Virus record (IMG/VR): IMGVR_UViG_3300007535_000003
Span: 33,238-97,237 of that record
DNA: 64,000 bases
Strand: one strand, 5' to 3'
Source of the DNA: a virus
Positions 3,261 to 54,200 of this stretch are shown one piece after another. The notes under the pieces were generated by a model. It saw nothing but the letters and a program-made list of their open reading frames with translations. It ran no database searches and was not told where the DNA came from. The translations under genes and the position numbers were made by a program. Each line of letters opens with the position of its first letter. Position 1 is the stretch's first letter.

Positions 3261-3344
3261 ATGGAATTAGAAACAGCTGTTATAATTATGACATTATTTG
3301 CCATGCTTATAATAGTAATTATAAAAGGCAATAAGGATAAATAG
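3261..3344 (+). CDS. 27-aa single-TM microprotein
   Basis: MELETAVIIMTLFAMLIIVIIKGNKDK*, flanked by 20-bp direct repeats. Confidence 0.45.
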   Translation: MELETAVIIMTLFAMLIIVIIKGNKDK

Positions 3345-3645
3345 TAAGTACTGATAACTAAATTGAGTACTATCAGATCTGAAAGTTTAGTCCAAATTTG
3401 GACTGTCTGAAGTATGTTGGCATATCCCCAAATAAAGCCATATAAGCTGTTTATAGTCTAAATAGACCTGTAGTACCTAAACTACCCTATGAAGGCTTTA
3501 AATCGCTTAAAAAGGGCATTTATGGGCAAATGAGGGAGAGTGTTATAGGTCGTCTAAACTCACGCCTCAATCAGCCCTAATTTCACATAATCAATAACCC
3601 AACCTATATAATACTAATAGCTATAAACCACAAAAATATACAACT

Positions 3646-4549: not shown

Positions 4550-5071
4550 ATGAAGATTTACAGATTTAAAACTAAGGAAGAACTCATGAAAGAGTTTGGT
4601 TCTAATTTTAGAACTAAAGCACGTTTTAACAGTGAAGGTGAGATGGATTACCTATTCGGTACACCAGTGACAAAAGACTTCTATGAAGAAGTTGCAAACC
4701 AAGGTATTGCTATGATAGACAATGTAAATCCACATGCTTATCCCACCTTGTGGTCTGTCAACAATAAAATGTTAACCTGGAACTATAAACCTAAAAGGGG
4801 GGAAATAGTTGTAATTACACATTACCACAGTGGTAATATTGAAGGTACAGTTACTAAAATATTGGAAGCAAAATGGTACAGTGATTTAATATTATGTGAA
4901 GCCTTTACTGGTGATCCAATTAGAAATTTAAGACACCTAAACAAGCCTGCTTGGTTTGAAGCAGAGTATAGACCTGCTACTGAAGAAGAGAAAGAATTCT
5001 ACAGACTTGCTAAGAAAAAGGGGCGAGTTGCCATAGTAGGGCAAAGTAGTGGAAAACCACACATCTGTTAA
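4550..5071 (+). CDS. hypothetical protein
   Basis: 173 aa, YRFKTKEE N-terminus and RPATEEE motif. Confidence 0.75.
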   Translation: MKIYRFKTKEELMKEFGSNFRTKARFNSEGEMDYLFGTPVTKDFYEEVANQGIAMIDNVNPHAYPTLWSVNNKMLTWNYKPKRGEIVVITHYHSGNIEGTVTKILEAKWYSDLILCEAFTGDPIRNLRHLNKPAWFEAEYRPATEEEKEFYRLAKKKGRVAIVGQSSGKPHIC

Positions 5072-7608: not shown

Positions 7609-7728
7609 GGTCCGTTCGTCTAGTGGTAGGACGCCGAGCTGTTAATACTTTATACATGCACTAGCTATGTTAGAGTATCAACCATGGTTTGCCCCACGGA
7701 AACGGAGGTTCGACTCCTCCACGGACTG
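7609..7728 (+). ncRNA. tRNA-like RNA with an expanded anticodon arm
   Basis: Acceptor GGTCCGT/ACGGACT, D-arm GTCT-AGTGGT-AGGAC, T-arm GGAGG-TTCGACT-CCTCC; about 50 extra nt in the anticodon arm. Confidence 0.75.
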
Positions 7729-7733
7729 CTGTT

Positions 7734-7926
7734 AGCCATATAGCTCAAAAGTGTTACACTCAAGTTCCTAGGAATCGGCTGTAACCCCCAAGGATATGCA
7801 GAGGAGAATGGAACTTATTTGGACTTAAAATCCAATCCATTCTAGGCCACCTCACGCAGAGTCCGAGTAGCGGAAGAGCCCCTAATAAATTATAGGGAGA
7901 TCTGGGTTCGAGTCCCAGTATGGCTA
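7734..7926 (+). ncRNA. tRNA-like RNA with a ~120-nt insert in the D-loop
   Basis: Acceptor AGCCATA/TATGGCT, D-stem GCTC/GAGC, CCCTA/TAGGG arm, T-arm CTGGG-TTCGAGT-CCCAG. Confidence 0.75.
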
Positions 7927-8393: not shown

Positions 8394-8837
8394 ATGTGGA
8401 AATCTAACTCAAAGCAAAGCAAAGACAAAATAAGTAAGGGCAGTTTAGTAATTATTGACATGCCCGACTTTATTGGAGAATATGTACCTTCAATAAGTAA
8501 GGTAGCGTGTAGCTACAAAGAAAAGATGCTACATTTCTCTAATGTTAGCAATGCTTTTGGTAGCTTATTTGGTGAAGAACACCATTTAATAGAAGTACCA
8601 AGAGCAGTCATACTCTATAACAAGACACATTTTCTTAAGAGTGTATTAGAGCTATCTGAAGCATATAAAGAAGATAGCTTAGATTCTTTATTCTTTTACG
8701 GTCGTAAAATAGTACTACCAGTCCATGAGGGATACTTAATGCCGGTAAGTAAAATAAAGGATCCACACAAAAGAGGACTATGTTATAGAGAATGGGAAAT
8801 GTTAAAGACTAAGGGATATAGTAACCTTATAACCTAA
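8394..8837 (+). CDS. hypothetical protein
   Basis: 147-aa ORF in operon. Confidence 0.65.
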   Translation: MWKSNSKQSKDKISKGSLVIIDMPDFIGEYVPSISKVACSYKEKMLHFSNVSNAFGSLFGEEHHLIEVPRAVILYNKTHFLKSVLELSEAYKEDSLDSLFFYGRKIVLPVHEGYLMPVSKIKDPHKRGLCYREWEMLKTKGYSNLIT

Positions 8838-8898
8838 CTTAACTAACAAACGATTTACTTACGCTGCTAGCTAGGGCTTTAGCGGACTCGGGTTCGAT

Positions 8899-9519
8899 CA
8901 AAAGGTCGAAGTTAAACTGGGTGAATTCAGGGAAACCTAAGTCACAATGATAAGGCAACCCTGAGCCAAGCCCTTAAGAGGGAAGGTGCAGAGACTACCT
9001 GAATACAGGCTAGAGCGCCCAGCACTTAAAAGTGAAGAGATAGTCCGATACTCCTGAGAAATTAGGAGAAGAAGCGAGATGTAAATTCTTGACGTTTTGA
9101 TAAGGTTTCTTTTGTATATTTACCATTACGAGGTGTTATACTCTTCAATTCGTTAAGTATCATATCTATACGTCTACGCTTCTTGGGATGTCTGGAATTT
9201 ATGTAAGATAGTACGTTTATACATTTAGGTAAATAAGTATACCTCAGCTCATAATTAGTAAAATCACCTGATTTTTTAGTACAAATGAATCCATTATGAC
9301 CTGTTTCAAGTTTAATAAATTTTTCTATTTCCACAAGTAGGTCATATTCGTTATTACTAAAAGAAATAACAGGTGATCTTTCGCAATTCTTATGTAAACG
9401 TAAAAATGTTATCGTGCCGTCAGCATCAAAGAAACCTGTAATATATTCCCAACCCATATTTTTATTGAATATACGGACGCAGGTTTGAAATGTTACTGTT
9501 CCAGATGTTTTAACTATTG
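8899..9519 (+). mobile_element. group I intron in the tmRNA T-loop
   Basis: P1 with U.G at the splice site (TTCGAT/GTCGAA); P GAATTCAGGGAAAC 8923; Q AACCCTGAGCCAAG 8957; R GTGCAGAGACTA 8986; S AAGAGATAGTCC 9035; P3 CTGGGTG/CGCCCAG; extra P7.1 hairpin (IA-like); terminal G9519. Confidence 0.92.
9062..9457 (-). CDS. single-motif LAGLIDADG homing endonuclease, antisense within the intron
   Basis: N-terminal YITGFFDADGTI motif, 131 aa, located in the P9 region of the intron. Confidence 0.9.
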   Translation of the reverse strand: MGWEYITGFFDADGTITFLRLHKNCERSPVISFSNNEYDLLVEIEKFIKLETGHNGFICTKKSGDFTNYELRYTYLPKCINVLSYINSRHPKKRRRIDMILNELKSITPRNGKYTKETLSKRQEFTSRFFS

Positions 9520-25962: not shown

Positions 25963-26571
25963 ATGCCATTATACGACATGACCAAAGATGTTCAAAAAGA
26001 GGGTAACGGTAGTGCTTATTTGGAAGCTGGTATTCATGAAAACATCGTGCTAAGTGATGTATCATATAACGAATCTAGGAATGGTAACAAATTTCTAGCT
26101 TTCTATTTCTCCGATGAGAATGGGAATCAAGTACCTAAAACAGAATGGGAACCCAATGGAGAGAATCAAGAAAGCAAAGTTAATAAACAACTAGCTAGAA
26201 TAAAGCATATTGCCGTAAACTCAGGTATTTTGAGCGAAGATGAGTTCGTCTTCAAAGCAGAAGATTTTGAGAGTTTCGCTAAACAAGTAGTTGAGAAACT
26301 AAAATCTAAACAAGATCAATGGAAAGATCATAAGCTTAGGGTAAAAGTAGTATATGATTTTAACAACTATACAACTTTGCCTAGCTACGCTAAATTTGAT
26401 TGGCTAGAAAATATGAATATACCTGCGGATCAATCAAAGATTAAGATCTTGCCTATAGATAAAATGGAGAGAGATAAACCTGATTCTACTCAGACTTCAT
26501 CTAACCCATTTGATAGTAATACCCAGGAACAGGGTAAGAGTTCAAAGACTGATGAAAATGTTCCATTCTAA
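25963..26571 (+). CDS. putative single-stranded DNA-binding protein
   Basis: OB-like N-terminus, acidic tail ending DENVPF. Confidence 0.7.
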   Translation: MPLYDMTKDVQKEGNGSAYLEAGIHENIVLSDVSYNESRNGNKFLAFYFSDENGNQVPKTEWEPNGENQESKVNKQLARIKHIAVNSGILSEDEFVFKAEDFESFAKQVVEKLKSKQDQWKDHKLRVKVVYDFNNYTTLPSYAKFDWLENMNIPADQSKIKILPIDKMERDKPDSTQTSSNPFDSNTQEQGKSSKTDENVPF

Positions 26572-26615
26572 ATTAGCATATAATATCCCTCTTCGGAGGG
26601 TACATATATATACCC

Positions 26616-26648
26616 AGGGCTTTGTTTTACAACAAGGCCCTATTTTTT
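26616..26648 (+). terminator. intrinsic terminator
   Basis: AGGGCTTTGTT/AACAAGGCCCT stem followed by a T-run. Confidence 0.75.
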
Positions 26649-26669
26649 GCTAGCTCAAGTATAATAACA

Positions 26670-27060
26670 AGCTCGATAGCGGAACCAGAAGACGCACTGA
26701 TTAGCCTTGACCCCTAAGGCTTGAAATTGGGGGGAGGCCTTGCTATCCTAAGAAACTGAATCTTTTTATATCAATGACAAGATATAAAGATAGCAACGCT
26801 CGTGGGCGTAGAATAACGAGCAAAGGTACAACTGTGCACTAAGTATTATATACCTGCAAAGAATATTAAATACGTATAGTTGATTACCGGTCAGGACGCA
26901 CTAAATGGTAGTAATAGAATCCATTCAAAGAATCTATTGACCCGATAAATACTAAGTTATAGTGCAATATCCAGTAATAGACACGTTGAATTGAAGTTCG
27001 ACTTAATACTACTAACAAGTAAAGTAAGTAAGTGTTGCAGGTTCAAGCCCTGCTCGAGCT
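26670..27060 (+). ncRNA. tRNA-scaffolded ~390-nt structured RNA
   Basis: Acceptor AGCTCGA/TCGAGCT, Leu/Ser-type D-arm GCG..CGC, T-arm GCAGG-TTCAAGC-CCTGC; ~335-nt insert at the anticodon position; TATAAT at 26660. Confidence 0.75.
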
Positions 27061-27068
27061 TGTTACTA

Positions 27069-27138
27069 GCCGGGTAGCTCAACGGTAGAGCCTAGGATTT
27101 TACCCTAGAGAAGCGAGGTTCGAGTCCTTGCCCCGGCA
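27069..27138 (+). tRNA. non-canonical tRNA, anticodon TTT (Lys-like)
   Basis: GCCGGG/CCCGGC, GCTC-AACGGTA-GAGC, CTAGG-ATTTTAC-CCTAG, GCGAGG-TTCGAGT-CCTTGC. Confidence 0.65.
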
Positions 27139-27152
27139 CTAAATTAATAAGC

Positions 27153-27404
27153 ATGAAAAAATATAATACATTTGTAACATACGCAACTAACGACAAGGGC
27201 GAAGATATCACAGAAGATAACAAATTAATATGGCATAAGTATAAAAAGGGTAGTAGAAAAGAATATGTAAGCGTATCTAAAAGAGCTCAAGATGGGGATA
27301 TACCTCAATTGAATGAACCTAATAGTAGAACTGTTTCATACTACACGAGAAATATACCTAAATTCGGCGAAGAGAGAACTGAGTTCATTATTTTTGAAAG
27401 CTAG
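27153..27404 (+). CDS. hypothetical protein
   Basis: 83-aa ORF. Confidence 0.6.
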   Translation: MKKYNTFVTYATNDKGEDITEDNKLIWHKYKKGSRKEYVSVSKRAQDGDIPQLNEPNSRTVSYYTRNIPKFGEERTEFIIFES

Positions 27405-51200: not shown

Positions 51201-54200
51201 ATTTTCATCTTTGTTCTTAGCAATAGCCACAGAATCTCTTACTAACTTGTTGTAAGTATCGTTATACTTACGCATCTTAGACTTATCTATCTTATTATCT
51301 TTAGTAACTAAATCGCTTTTAGCTAGTCTCTGTCCCCATTCTAACACATATCGCCTAGAAGCAGATTGTATCTCAGCGTCACCAAACCTAAATCTAAACT
51401 TATTTTTCCTATCATCAAAATAGGCATTAATAAACTTATTCTTATGCAGCCTGGTGCTTACTAGGAATTGAGTACGTACTAATTCATTATGATCATTTAA
51501 TCTATTATATAAGACTTCATAAGGAAAGTAATTCTCACTCTTAGACTTTAACCTCTCCAACATCTCTTCTACACTGTCTACATCATGTAAATCATTTAGT
51601 ACTTTATTCCATGTAGAAGTAAAGTCTACAAACTTAAACATATCTGTATAAGCATCTTTCTGCTTACTCTCAGGAAGAGTAAGTACCATCATCTTTATAT
51701 CAGACCTTATATTCTCCCTACCATCAAATTGGAATGGCGCTTTATTGTACTTTTCAAATTCTGATTGACCTCTACCACTAGTATACTCATTATCTAAATA
51801 GTCTTCTTTCTTCCTAGTAATATTTAGAGATGACAGATAGTCCTCAGCTAAAGATTGGAAATACTCAAAGTTGTCCAATATATCTTGATATAAGTCTATT
51901 AACCTATCAGCTTCAGCTATCTCTCCTTGAGCAAACTCTTTTTCTTCTTGGTTAGAAGCCTTTTCAACTTGTTCAGAGAAATATTCTTTATTATCTCTTA
52001 TTACATCTCTTTTTCTGGCTACATCCTGCTTTACCGTATCAAAGTCTATTTTCTCAACATCTTCTACTCTATGCACTTCATTGAGAGTTAGAGCTTTAAA
52101 TACTAAGTTTTTGGTAATAGTCCTTTGCAGATCAGAGCTATACCCTTGCGAATTAAGATACGCTGTAGCACCTTTGAATATAGGAGCTGCTTTAGATTTT
52201 TTAGGTCTTGCGTATTTAAATCTACCTTGTTCTACAGCCCTAAATACATTCTCTACATCTAAACTGGATAATTGAACATCTCCAGTAAATAGGGTATATA
52301 TTATATTCCAAAGCTCCTGAAAGAATCTTTTTATTGCGCTGGGTTCTTTAAACTTATCCTTGTTATCAGTAAGTACAAATTCCCTAAACCTTTCAGCTAA
52401 TCTCTCTTCAACCTCTAAATTAGAGGCTCTAGCCATATCATACTTTCTCCTGGCTTTATCGTACATCTCTCCCCTTTGCTCGGGAGTAAGCAATGATAAG
52501 GATACTCTGTGAAATGCCTCATGGAAAGCAGTACCATACTCAGCAGCTCTAGACAGTATAATCATATCAGATCTAGTCTGGCCAAATGCTTCTTCGCCAG
52601 AAGATATCACTTTAATTAAGCTGTCTACAACATGTACATTCTCTTTAGGCAATTTATTCCTAAGCCATTTTAGCTCTCTCTCTATATCTATTTTTTTATA
52701 TGTAGAAGGAGCTTGACTCCTAAGCCTAAAAGGACTTATTTCATTAGGATCGTCACCAGCATTTCTAGGCTTGTTTTGTCTTTCATTGTACTCATCTGAA
52801 ACATCTTTAGTATAGATATAGCCCATGTTAGTACCACCGAATACAGACTTGAACTGCTCCATTACAGCTTTAGCTACATCCTCATTAGTAACAGATTCCC
52901 TTTCAACTGCTTGAAGTTCTGATTTAGCGCTAGACTTAGTGAGTACCTGTATCTTCCTATTCTCATCCACCCTAAGCACAGGGTCGGTAAACATAGTCTT
53001 CTCTTTACCTTCCTCTATAATAGCATGCTTGGTAACTAACTCTGTATTAGCTGGTATATTCTTAAATTTCTCTACAGTGTCTACAGTTCTGTAGAATTTC
53101 TTAGACTTAGATTTAGGCTCTTGTTTAGACATTACAGTTTTAGATGCATCTTCAGACGTCTTTTCTTCAGATTTAGAATTAGTAGGAGTCACACTACCAG
53201 AAGTATCATTACCAGAGTTGGTAGGACTTATAGAGTTTATATCGTAGTGTATAGACGGTGCATGAAATATCGGCTTTTCAGCATCTGTCATTACTAATCT
53301 ATTATCTATAAGATATTCAGAGTAAGTAGTATCATTAGCTCTTACTTCTATATCCCCTAACTTAAACGATCTATCAAATGTCTTACCTAGTTTATTAATG
53401 CTAGCTACATAATTCTTGTTGGCCTTAGCCCACTCTACAAACTTATTAATATCATCTGAAGATATTTCGCTTATATCTGATTTACCTGTAAGATCTATAA
53501 TACCACTTTCTCCATAATGGAGCTTTCTTTCCTCTACATATAGTTGCTTACGCTTTAAATCAGTTTTAGTAGGATCTGTAACTTTGGTATATTTGATACC
53601 CTCCAATGCTAATATATTAATAGCTTCACCCGCTGTAAGATTTTCAACATTAGGTATATTAAGGGCTGTATTATAGCCACCTTTTAGATGCGCTGTAAGT
53701 ATAGCCTCTAATAGTATTCTAGAATGTTGATCAGATAACTTTGAAGGATTAAGTTTAAAAGGAAATTCCTTGCCATTTTGAGTAGCTTCTGTAATAAGGA
53801 ATACATTACCTGGATTACCTGTATATTCTGCAAAGCCCCCTTTACTAGAGTGCAACATACCAGAGTTATCAGCTATAGCTACTTCAGCTTCTTTAGCTGT
53901 AACAGGGAATACATCAGTTATTTTCTTATTACGTTTTTCTTTTGTCAAAGAGGCTGTTATAGGTCTACCCCGACCTTTCTGAAGGTTAGTAACAGAAGGC
54001 CTATTTCCTTTGAGTATCTCCCTAAGCACTCGAATCCTATTAGCCCTAGTCTTACTCATTATGTTCTCTTTATAGATTTCTGTTTGTTCTTTAGTAAGAT
54101 CACTAGGTACTACAAAGGCATCATAACTAGATACATGGGAATGTACAATAGCAACAGTATTACCTTTAGCGTTCTTTACAGTACCCTTTATAGGTATTTG

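What the first reader, a model, noticed from the sequence alone, without database searches (positions are those of the whole stretch)
26665..27065. tRNA scaffold carrying a ~335-nt multi-pseudoknot domain in place of the anticodon
Seen: acceptor stem extendable to 12 bp (TAACAAGCTCGA/TCGAGCTTGTTA), a Leu/Ser-like D-arm and a perfect T-arm. The insert contains AGCCTT-GACCCCT-AAGGCT, whose loop can pair with a downstream G6 run (H-type pseudoknot). It also has TTGCTATC/GATAGCAA, GCTCGT/ACGAGC, AGGTA/TACCT crossed by CAACTGTG/TATAGTTG, and ATTACC/GGTAGT crossed by GCACTA/TAGTGC. The layout resembles tmRNA but lacks G3.U70 and an AA-ending tag. GCACTAAATG and AAGTTATAGTGC also resemble group I R and S elements with the G-site pair swapped, but no P4-P6 domain is evident. 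Inference: a possibly undescribed ncRNA class that uses tRNA processing for maturation and stability, or a derived intron/ribozyme.
Basis: partly seen in the sequence, partly recalled or inferred. Interest (0 to 1): 0.82.

Follow-up and report, generated by a model that had tools for sequence, protein, structure and literature searches.

The report
tRNA-framed giant RNA in crAss-like phage
A soil crAss-like phage carries a gene descended from a leucine tRNA that keeps the tRNA's ends and elbow, but about 340 strongly folding bases sit where the anticodon and variable arms should be; it is an unusually large, still unexplained example of the tRNA look-alike RNAs of phages.

Summary
The sequence features are real. 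There is a 12-bp closing stem (a 7-bp acceptor plus 5 bp), a leucine-type D arm and a canonical T arm. They frame 340 nt that fold far better than shuffles (z -5.75).

The frame aligns with the tRNA-Leu(UAA) gene that published crAss-like phages keep in the same slot, just upstream of the primase gene. So this is a remodelled tRNA-Leu gene, sitting next to an intact tRNA-Lys(UUU).

No single excision restores a canonical anticodon arm. The best one removes 26703-27019 and gives a defective Leu(UAA) cloverleaf. Rfam's tRNA, tmRNA and group I models do not match the element.

The individual pseudoknots are unproven, because nested alternatives exist. I found no homologue anywhere, so there is no covariation, and no RNA data either.

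Best reading (0.5): a non-decoding RNA that is matured like a tRNA and carries a structured cargo. It would be a very large relative in kind of T4 species 1 RNA and T5 RNA1. Earlier notes from this scan describe similar anticodon-less tRNA frames in other phages, and I confirmed one, unannotated, in crAssphage cr4_1 at the same slot.

A self-splicing or relic intron remains possible (about 0.15). Function is unknown.

The parts
26616..26650 (+). Intrinsic terminator of the upstream 202-aa gene: an 11-bp stem followed by a T-run. The element therefore probably starts its own transcript.
   Evidence: sequence
26665..26676 (+). 5' strand of the closing stem. 26670-76 (AGCUCGA) is the 7-bp acceptor strand; 26665-69 is a leader that pairs with the trailer.
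26677..26696 (+). U8, A9, then a leucine-type D arm (GCG / GAACCAGAAGA / CGC) and A26. G19 is kept; position 18 is A instead of G.
   Evidence: aligned with tRNA-Leu of cr130_1, cr131_1 and cr115_1
26697..26702 (+). CUGAUU, predicted to pair with GGUCAG 26889-94. This closes a 186-nt domain and ends in a U26702.G26889 wobble.
   Evidence: minimum-energy fold; prediction only
26703..26739 (+). Hairpin AGCCUU/AAGGCU plus a G6 run. It could form either a pseudoknot or a nested fold; weak on its own (z -1.6).
26740..26796 (+). Long hairpin (UUGCUAUC/GAUAGCAA closing UCUU..UAUAUC/GAUAUA..AAGA) with an A-rich 5' internal loop. This is the best supported local structure (z -4.3).
26799..26822 (+). 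Hairpin GCUCGU/ACGAGC with a 12-nt loop (z -2.6).
26825..26882 (+). Region of the proposed AGGUA/UACCU x CAACUGUG/UAUAGUUG knot. The minimum-energy fold uses only the outer helix (z -1.0).
26883..26966 (+). AUUACC, GGUCAG, then GCACUA...UAGUGC around a hairpin (26913-38). This is either a group-I-like P3/P7/P8 knot or one long nested hairpin (z -2.75 for 26895-968).
26985..27036 (+). Hairpin GUUGAAU-UGAA-GUUCGAC followed by an A/U/G-rich tail. It contains three features: AGUUCGA (26995-27001), an alternative partner of the acceptor 3' strand; GACUUAAUA (27000-08), a possible remnant of the Leu anticodon loop; and CUACUAACAAG (27009-19), an alternative partner of the trailer.
27037..27053 (+). 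Canonical T arm GCAGG-UUCAAGC-CCUGC, with G53, U54, U55, C56, A58 and C61 all present.
27054..27068 (+). Acceptor 3' strand UCGAGCU, discriminator U (27061), and trailer GUUACUA that pairs with the leader. No CCA is encoded.
27069..27139 (+). Intact tRNA-Lys(UUU), 8 nt (27061-27068) downstream of the acceptor 3' strand. It is probably co-transcribed with the element.
   Evidence: (43.7 bits)

Best explanation
The stretch is one RNA gene descended from the tRNA-Leu(UAA) gene that related crAss-like phages keep in the same slot. That slot lies between the ~200-aa gene following the Sak4-like ATPase and the primase gene.

The gene has kept the parts of a tRNA that the processing machinery reads: the acceptor stem, the leucine-type D arm, and the T arm with the elbow. 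The anticodon arm and the long variable arm have been replaced by about 340 nt of strongly folding RNA. The leucine identity base A73 has become U.

The following steps are inferred, not shown. The RNA is transcribed from just behind the upstream terminator, together with tRNA-Lys(UUU). It is cut out by RNase P and by 3' trimming, like a tRNA. It persists as a stable RNA of about 390 nt with its insert retained. It cannot read codons. The tRNA frame would supply maturation and stability for a structured cargo whose task is unknown; candidates are a decoy or binding platform for host or phage factors that recognise tRNA.
For: Frame:
- 7-bp acceptor, D arm and T arm at the canonical spacing.
- The acceptor AGCUCGA/UCGAGCU matches cr130_1 tRNA-Leu ACCUCGA/UCGAGGU at 6 of 7 positions, with a compensating change at pair 2:71. 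It also resembles cr131_1 GGCUUGA/UUGAGCC.
- The D arm has the same GCG-11 nt-CGC layout in all of them.

Same slot:
- cr131_1 has tRNA-Leu(UAA) directly before the primase gene, and cr130_1 has tRNA-Gln plus tRNA-Leu there.
- L009 has tRNA-Lys there.
- cr4_1 has an unannotated 124-nt anticodon-less tRNA-like gene there.

Not decoding:
- No excision gives a 5-bp anticodon stem, U33 and a purine at 37 within the normal tRNA geometry.
- The tRNA model gives no hit on the element at E<=10.
- A73 is U and G18 is A.

Structured and non-coding:
- Fold z -5.75.
- No ORF.
- A terminator lies upstream, and none was found by the scan between the element, tRNA-Lys and the start of the primase gene.

Precedent: T4 rnaC/rnaD and T5 RNA1/RNA2 are annotated as stable tRNA-like RNAs inside tRNA clusters. 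T5 RNA1 has a leucine-type D arm.

No phage-encoded RtcB, Rnl2-type ligase or splicing endonuclease was found.
Against: - No homologue of the insert was found, so selection on the fold is untested.
- There are no RNA data, so transcription, the ends of the RNA and retention of the insert are all inferred.
- The 5 extra base pairs between leader and trailer (up to 15 nt of pairing) are not what RNase P prefers. This rests on established knowledge of RNase P substrates.
- Removing 26703-27019 gives a product that ARAGORN calls tRNA-Leu(UAA). The removed piece starts after a U that can wobble-pair with G26889 and ends in G. That fits an intron reading.
- Internal repeats of tRNA pieces could mean scrambling and decay rather than function: GACGCACT twice, AGTTCGA, and GCACTAAAT, which also equals the 3' end of tRNA-Lys.
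Confidence: 0.5

Rival explanations
1. It is a pre-tRNA-Leu(UAA) interrupted by a 317-nt intervening sequence (26703-27019). That sequence is removed either by self-splicing (a rearranged group-I-like or new ribozyme) or by an unknown enzyme, leaving a 75-77-nt tRNA. Alternatively it is the decayed relic of such an intron.
For: - The frame descends from tRNA-Leu(UAA). From established knowledge, this is the classic home of group I introns in cyanobacteria and plastids.
- Excising 26703-27019 gives a product that ARAGORN at default settings calls tRNA-Leu(UAA).
- The piece starts after U26702, which can wobble-pair with G26889 at the end of helix CUGAUU/GGUCAG, and it ends in G27019.
- ACUAAAUG and AAGUUAUAGUG resemble the group I R and S elements, with a hairpin between them. 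This comparison is from memory of the consensus.
- At 317 nt it is within the usual size range of an ORF-less group I intron (from general knowledge, not tested here).
- The same phage has a real group I intron (97 bits). It also has a tRNA-Asn with a 49-nt insert at position 37/38 whose removal restores a normal tRNA.
Against: - Rfam Intron_gpI gives nothing on the element at E<=10, whether 751 nt, 161 nt or the whole genome is searched.
- There is no significant similarity to the bona fide intron of the same genome.
- The only good partner for the exon end lies 186 nt into the insert and directly before the 'P7' strand. That leaves no room for P3-P6 in the canonical order.
- The guanosine-site pair would be C-G.
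- The 'spliced' tRNA has a G.A mismatch in the anticodon stem, no nucleotide 26, a 7-nt variable region instead of a class II arm, A18, and U73 instead of the A73 that all three relatives have.
- Among 5280 trial excisions, ARAGORN accepted 226, 10 of them as Leu(UAA). One such solution is therefore not surprising.
- No intron-less allele was found with the T-arm/acceptor word.
Confidence: 0.15
2. It is a dying tRNA-Leu gene. Recombination among tRNA genes and insertions scrambled its middle. The fold is incidental, and the RNA, if made, has no function.
For: - It is an orphan. It is absent from all syntenic relatives examined and from every collection searched.
- It contains repeats of tRNA fragments.
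- Leucine identity and the anticodon are lost.
- The other tRNA-like genes of this phage are also disrupted.
Against: - Acceptor stem, elbow nucleotides and T loop are intact, whereas decay should hit them too.
- A z-score of -5.75 is far beyond shuffles.
- About 400 nt are kept in a tightly packed genome.
- The same sequence is present, without differences over the parts covered, in contigs of four soil runs. This only shows that the phage recurs.
Confidence: 0.2
3. It is a phage tmRNA-like RNA that rescues ribosomes or tags proteins.
For: - Its size (about 390 nt) is tmRNA-like.
- A tRNA-like domain is formed by the two ends.
- A pseudoknot-like element (26703-34) follows the 5' part, and several possible knots lie further on.
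Against: - ARAGORN finds no tmRNA.
- Rfam tmRNA models give nothing at E<=10.
- Pair 3:70 is C-G, not G.U, and the discriminator is U.
- The frames after the first knot give only AILRN-stop or ALLS-stop, with no alanine-rich tag (my reading).
- It has a proper D stem, which tmRNA lacks (from knowledge of tmRNA).
Confidence: 0.02

Closest known systems
Phage T5 RNA1 and RNA2, and T4 species 1 and 2 RNAs (rnaC, rnaD): stable tRNA-like RNAs of unknown function inside phage tRNA clusters (GenBank AY543070 and AF158101)
   Same: - Encoded next to tRNA genes.
- Acceptor and T arm are kept.
- T5 RNA1 also has a leucine-type D arm (CCG-GAAUUGGUAGA-CGG).
- The anticodon region is replaced by other structure.
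- Function is unknown.
   Different: - Those RNAs are 119-144 nt, whereas here the replaced part alone is 340 nt.
- There is no sequence similarity.
- Their stability and processing were shown at the bench (from knowledge of the older literature). Here nothing is known about the RNA itself.
tRNA-Leu(UAA) of Suoliviridae crAss-like phages cr130_1 and cr131_1, encoded just upstream of the primase gene
   Same: - Same genomic slot.
- Near-identical acceptor stem.
- Same D-arm layout, and a T arm.
   Different: - Those are normal 87-nt class II tRNAs with a CUUAAAA or AUUAAAA loop, a 17-nt variable arm and A73.
- Here the anticodon and variable arms are gone or unrecognisable, and the discriminator is U73.
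Unannotated 124-nt tRNA-like gene of crAssphage cr4_1 (NC_055893.1, about 51507-51630, minus strand)
   Same: - Same slot before the primase gene.
- Canonical acceptor, D arm and T arm.
- An oversized arm without an anticodon loop.
- Not found by default ARAGORN.
   Different: - Its insert is only about 60-80 nt.
- Its acceptor carries G3.U70 and discriminator A.
- There is no sequence similarity to the insert here.
tRNA genes with 'enigmatic introns' of Lak megaphages (Devoto et al. 2019, PMC6784885)
   Same: - Phages of Bacteroidota with oversized tRNA genes.
- The inserts match no Rfam family.
   Different: - There, removing the insert restores a tRNA of recognisable type.
- Here it does not restore a canonical one.
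Group I intron of tRNA-Leu(UAA) in cyanobacteria and plastids (Rfam RF00028)
   Same: - The host gene is the same tRNA species.
- The insert size is comparable.
- There are short R/S-like words, a U.G pair at a possible 5' junction and a G at a possible 3' end.
   Different: - No match to the covariance model.
- No P4-P6 in the canonical place.
- The G-site pair is swapped.
- The junction would be 33/34, not 34/35.
- The resulting tRNA is defective.

Membership tests
Canonical tRNA (Rfam RF00005) | 7-bp acceptor stem, D arm and T arm with a UUCRANY loop at canonical spacing | tested here: met
   position 18 is A instead of G
Canonical tRNA (Rfam RF00005) | 5-bp anticodon stem with a 7-nt loop (U33, purine 37), directly or after one excision | tested here: not met
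   The only 5-bp solution that also has U33 and a purine at 37 (excision 26700-27002, anticodon ACU) needs two nucleotides at position 26, takes only 2 nt from the 5' exon and fits no splice rule. The Leu(UAA) solution has 4 of 5 pairs with a G.A mismatch and lacks nucleotide 26.
Canonical tRNA (Rfam RF00005) | Score at or above the family's gathering threshold (29 bits) | tested here: not met
   Only tRNA-Lys 27069-138 is reported, even at E<=10.
Group I intron (Rfam RF00028) | Match to the covariance model | tested here: not met
   The model finds 8774-9068 at 97 bits but nothing on the element at E<=10.
Group I intron (Rfam RF00028) | P4-P6 domain between the 5' strands of P3 and P7 | tested here: not met
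   Only 9 nt (GGUCAGGAC) lie between ATTACC and GCACTA.
Group I intron (Rfam RF00028) | G-C guanosine-binding pair in P7 | tested here: not met
   The pair at that position of GCACUA/UAGUGC is C-G. The position was assigned by analogy with the consensus from memory.
Group I intron (Rfam RF00028) | U.G pair at the 5' splice site, terminal G, and exons that join to a functional gene | tested here: inconclusive
   U26702.G26889 and G27019 exist, and the joined product is called tRNA-Leu(UAA) by ARAGORN. But that product has several defects.
tmRNA (Rfam RF00023 and relatives) | Match to a tmRNA model or an ARAGORN tmRNA call | tested here: not met
tmRNA (Rfam RF00023 and relatives) | G3.U70 alanine identity pair and a tag reading frame | tested here: not met
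   Pair 3:70 is C-G. The only short frames are AILRN-stop and ALLS-stop.
Phage tRNA-like stable RNAs (T4 species 1/2, T5 RNA1/2 kind) | Encoded beside phage tRNA genes, with a tRNA-like acceptor and T arm and no usable anticodon arm | tested here: met
Phage tRNA-like stable RNAs (T4 species 1/2, T5 RNA1/2 kind) | Accumulates as a discrete, processed, stable RNA | not testable with these tools
   No RNA run holds the stretch.
Phage tRNA-like stable RNAs (T4 species 1/2, T5 RNA1/2 kind) | Sequence homology to the T4 or T5 RNAs | tested here: not met
   No blastn match in the phage collection, which holds T4 and T5. The likeness is of kind, not of descent.

The most novel reading that the evidence does not exclude
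The 317 nt from 26703 to 27019 are an active self-splicing intron of a new or topologically rearranged group-I-like kind in a phage tRNA-Leu(UAA). In this reading the exon-binding strand lies after a P4-P6-like domain, the guanosine-site pair is swapped (so the cofactor specificity may be changed), and splicing would yield a minimal leucine-type tRNA.
Probability: 0.06. Interest if true: 0.9.

Novelty: new variant of a known kind. Interest (0 to 1): 0.5.

Why it matters
Phage genomes hold many tRNA look-alikes that cannot decode. The first ones (T4 species 1 and 2, T5 RNA1 and RNA2) have been unexplained for decades.

This case adds two things.
- It gives a clear line of descent: an ordinary tRNA-Leu(UAA) at a conserved slot of crAss-like phages has turned into a frame.
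- It shows the frame can carry a cargo of about 340 nt, roughly three to five times the insert sizes I saw in the comparison cases: about 55 nt in T5 RNA1, 60-80 nt in cr4_1, and 125-127 nt in the earlier, unchecked notes of this scan.

If the RNA is made and stable, it is a natural version of the 'tRNA scaffold' used in the laboratory to express structured RNAs. Its cargo would be a candidate new functional RNA of the most abundant group of gut and soil phages. If it is spliced instead, it would be a new kind of intron.

The finding also flags that annotation pipelines miss these genes. The cr4_1 record has none annotated at this slot.

Tried and rejected
Homologue searches, all empty or chance:
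- blastn of 561 nt against 50,697 phage records.
- blastn of the two frame halves against the same records.
- Exact or gapped words in viral contigs. The 38 hits and the 6 were coding-sequence coincidences.
- Two words in genome contigs.
- Primase-synteny loci from viral and metagenome contigs.
- Whole records of five relatives. The 14-nt hit upstream of the primase gene in L013 lies in the C-terminal codons of the neighbouring gene.
- A tRNA-Lys word found only L009's contig.

RNA evidence: no RNA holder is listed. Four soil DNA runs hold the same sequence or parts of it, with no variants inside the element over the parts covered. One divergent contig in the fourth run differs only at 27066-27073.

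Other readings tested and dropped:
- tmRNA.
- Tandem decayed tRNAs inside the insert: the tRNA model shows nothing further at E<=10.
- The weak YrlA, suhB and mir-465 hits are far below their thresholds and explained by tRNA-likeness, the terminator, or chance.
- Coding capacity.
- Antisense targets in the phage: the 20-nt match at 49025-44 is same-sense and lies inside a giant ORF.
- Phage-encoded RtcB, Rnl2-type ligase and splicing endonuclease.

A strict frame scan of phage SPP1 found nothing. Searches were slips that I corrected, and one search was an empty script.

Full report
**Where the window comes from.** The window is part of a 97-kb virus record, 94% complete by CheckV's estimate. 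Its primase gene finds crAss-like phages, and its DNA recurs in four soil metagenome runs. The element lies in the replication module. The gene order is DnaB-like helicase, Sak4-like ATPase, a 202-aa gene, the element, tRNA-Lys(UUU), then primase.

**The observation.** All listed sequence elements are present.
- The two ends pair over 12 bp, or 15 nt at 93%.
- The inner 7 bp form an acceptor stem.
- They are followed by U8-A9 and a D arm, GCG-GAACCAGAAGA-CGC.
- They are preceded by a T arm, GCAGG-UUCAAGC-CCUGC, with every conserved T-loop base.

Default ARAGORN and Rfam see only the neighbouring tRNA-Lys.

The 401-414 nt fold at -112 to -113 kcal/mol, z -5.75. A crude second layer of crossing helices is also better than shuffles (z -3.9, 1 of 150). 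The individual knots are not established.
- The minimum-energy fold turns the ATTACC/GGTAGT x GCACTA/TAGTGC knot into one long hairpin.
- The sub-domains holding the other two knots are barely better than shuffles.

There is no ORF. A strong terminator precedes the element, and the scan of 26300-27400 found none between the element, tRNA-Lys and the start of the primase gene.

**What it descends from.** Syntenic relatives found through the primase gene lack the element. They have the ~215-aa and ~205-aa genes and then the primase gene. One of them, L009, has tRNA-Lys(CUU) in between, and that gene is about 80% identical to the tRNA-Lys here.

In published Suoliviridae the same slot holds tRNA genes.
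- cr131_1 has tRNA-Leu(UAA) directly before the primase gene.
- cr130_1 has tRNA-Gln and tRNA-Leu(UAA) there.

The frame of the element aligns with these tRNA-Leu genes.
- Acceptor AGCUCGA/UCGAGCU compares with ACCUCGA/UCGAGGU in cr130_1. That is 6 of 7 positions, and the difference at pair 2:71 is compensated.
- It compares with GGCUUGA/UUGAGCC in cr131_1.
- All share the same GCG-11 nt-CGC D arm.

The differences are A18 for G18, U73 for A73, and loss of the anticodon arm and the 17-nt variable arm. GACUUAAUA at 27000-08 resembles the 'GA + CUUAAAA' of the relatives' anticodon arm, but this has about an 8% chance expectation. I conclude that the element is a remodelled tRNA-Leu(UAA) gene. 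This rests on few compared genes and is partly post hoc.

**Can it decode?** I enumerated all single excisions.
- With normal geometry, none gives a 5-bp stem, U33 and a purine at 37.
- With relaxed geometry, one solution is noteworthy. Removing 26703-27019 gives ACUGA-UUUAAAG-UAAGU. Default ARAGORN calls the 77-nt product tRNA-Leu(UAA).

The removed piece starts after U26702, which can wobble-pair with G26889 at the end of helix CUGAUU/GGUCAG, and it ends in G. This keeps an intron reading alive. But the product has a G.A mismatch in the stem, no nucleotide 26, a 7-nt variable region, A18 and U73. ARAGORN also accepted 226 of 5280 trial excisions, 10 of them as Leu(UAA).

**Known families.**
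- Rfam release 15 gives nothing on the element at E<=10, in windows of 751 and 161 nt.
- The tmRNA and group I models run over the whole genome find only the real group I intron at 8774-9068.
- A local alignment of the element with that intron is no better than shuffles.
- The only good partner for the putative exon end lies 186 nt into the insert, directly before the 'P7' strand. P3-P6 therefore cannot sit in their canonical order, and the guanosine-site pair would be C-G.
- tmRNA is excluded by pair 3:70 (C-G), discriminator U, the lack of a tag and the lack of a model hit.

**The kind it belongs to.** Earlier notes of this scan describe anticodon-less tRNA frames in many phages, several with a leucine-type body. 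They name T4 rnaC/rnaD, T5 RNA1/RNA2 and the Lak-phage 'enigmatic introns' as closest known. I checked these leads.
- The T4 and T5 records annotate such stable RNAs inside tRNA clusters. T5 RNA1 has a CCG-GAAUUGGUAGA-CGG D arm.
- Devoto et al. report phage tRNA genes with unexplained introns.
- I also found an unannotated 124-nt gene in crAssphage cr4_1 at the same slot. It has a canonical acceptor (with G3.U70), D arm and T arm, and an oversized arm without an anticodon loop.

The element here is thus of a known, poorly understood kind. It stands out by the size of its insert: 340 nt, against about 55-130 nt in the cases above.

**Mechanism.**
- Shown: the frame, its descent, the strong fold, the non-coding nature, and the terminator and tRNA context.
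- Inferred: transcription with tRNA-Lys, tRNA-type processing, retention of the insert and stability. No phage-encoded RNA ligase or splicing endonuclease was found.

The insert's function is unknown. I commit to 'non-decoding, tRNA-matured carrier of a structured cargo' at 0.5. The alternatives are 'intron or intron relic in tRNA-Leu' at 0.15, 'decaying gene' at 0.2 and tmRNA at 0.02. The rest is left for something not considered.

**Limits.** No homologue of the insert was found in any collection I could scan. No RNA run holds the stretch.

Noticed in passing
window 7609-7728 (+): tRNA-Asn(GUU) carries a 49-51-nt insert in the anticodon loop at about position 37/38. Removing it restores a normal tRNA (44.6 bits). 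The insert is too short for a group I intron, and the phage encodes no splicing endonuclease, RtcB or Rnl2-type ligase. The homologous gene in relative G002 (3295-3387) has a different, shorter insert.
   Followed up: partly
window 7734-7925 (+): A 192-nt tRNA-like gene with acceptor AGCCAUA/UAUGGCU and a good T arm. A perfect Leu(UAA) anticodon stem-loop (UUGGA-CUUAAAA-UCCAA) sits at the tip of a long extended helix inside the body. Its acceptor resembles the normal tRNA-Leu(UAA) of relative G001.
   Followed up: partly
window 8774-9068 (+): A bona fide group I intron (Rfam 97.3 bits, full-length match). ARAGORN and the Rfam tmRNA model find no tmRNA in the genome.
   Followed up: partly
window 36258-58541 (-): A single open reading frame of 7427 aa, very large for a phage of about 100 kb.
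   Followed up: no
L097:11508-11631 (-), i.e. NC_055893.1 about 51507-51630: An unannotated 124-nt tRNA-like gene in crAssphage cr4_1, between gp34 and the primase gene. It has G3.U70, discriminator A, normal D and T arms and no anticodon loop. Upstream of it lies a structure of about 130 nt closed by a ~13-bp stem with one unpaired base.
   Followed up: partly
L099:2222-2498 and L098:2999-3201, 3366-3623: The gaps around tRNA-Leu in cr131_1 and cr130_1 contain acceptor/T-arm minihelix-like pieces (for example UAUCGG...AGAGG-UUCGAUU-CCUCU-CCGAUA) and further tRNA-like 3' halves. None is annotated.
   Followed up: no
window 26836, 26898, 27136 (+): GCACTAA occurs three times within about 300 nt: twice in the insert and once spanning the 3' end of tRNA-Lys and its trailer. 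Only 11 copies of GCACTAR lie on the + strand of the whole 64 kb. GACGCACT also occurs twice (26691 and 26895). This could be a processing signal or a trace of duplication.
   Followed up: partly
G002 (IMGVR_UViG_3300026167_000001) about 4815-4860: The sequence GGGACGCGGGTTCGATTCCCGCCGCCTCCAC looks like the 3' end of a tmRNA (T arm plus an alanine-type acceptor strand). It lies next to a 77-nt tRNA-like gene that ARAGORN does not call.
   Followed up: no
window 26718-26725 versus 27042-27049: GGCUUGAA in the insert is perfectly complementary to the T loop and the start of its 3' stem (UUCAAGCC). It was picked up as the best crossing helix. It could be an alternative fold or chance.
   Followed up: no
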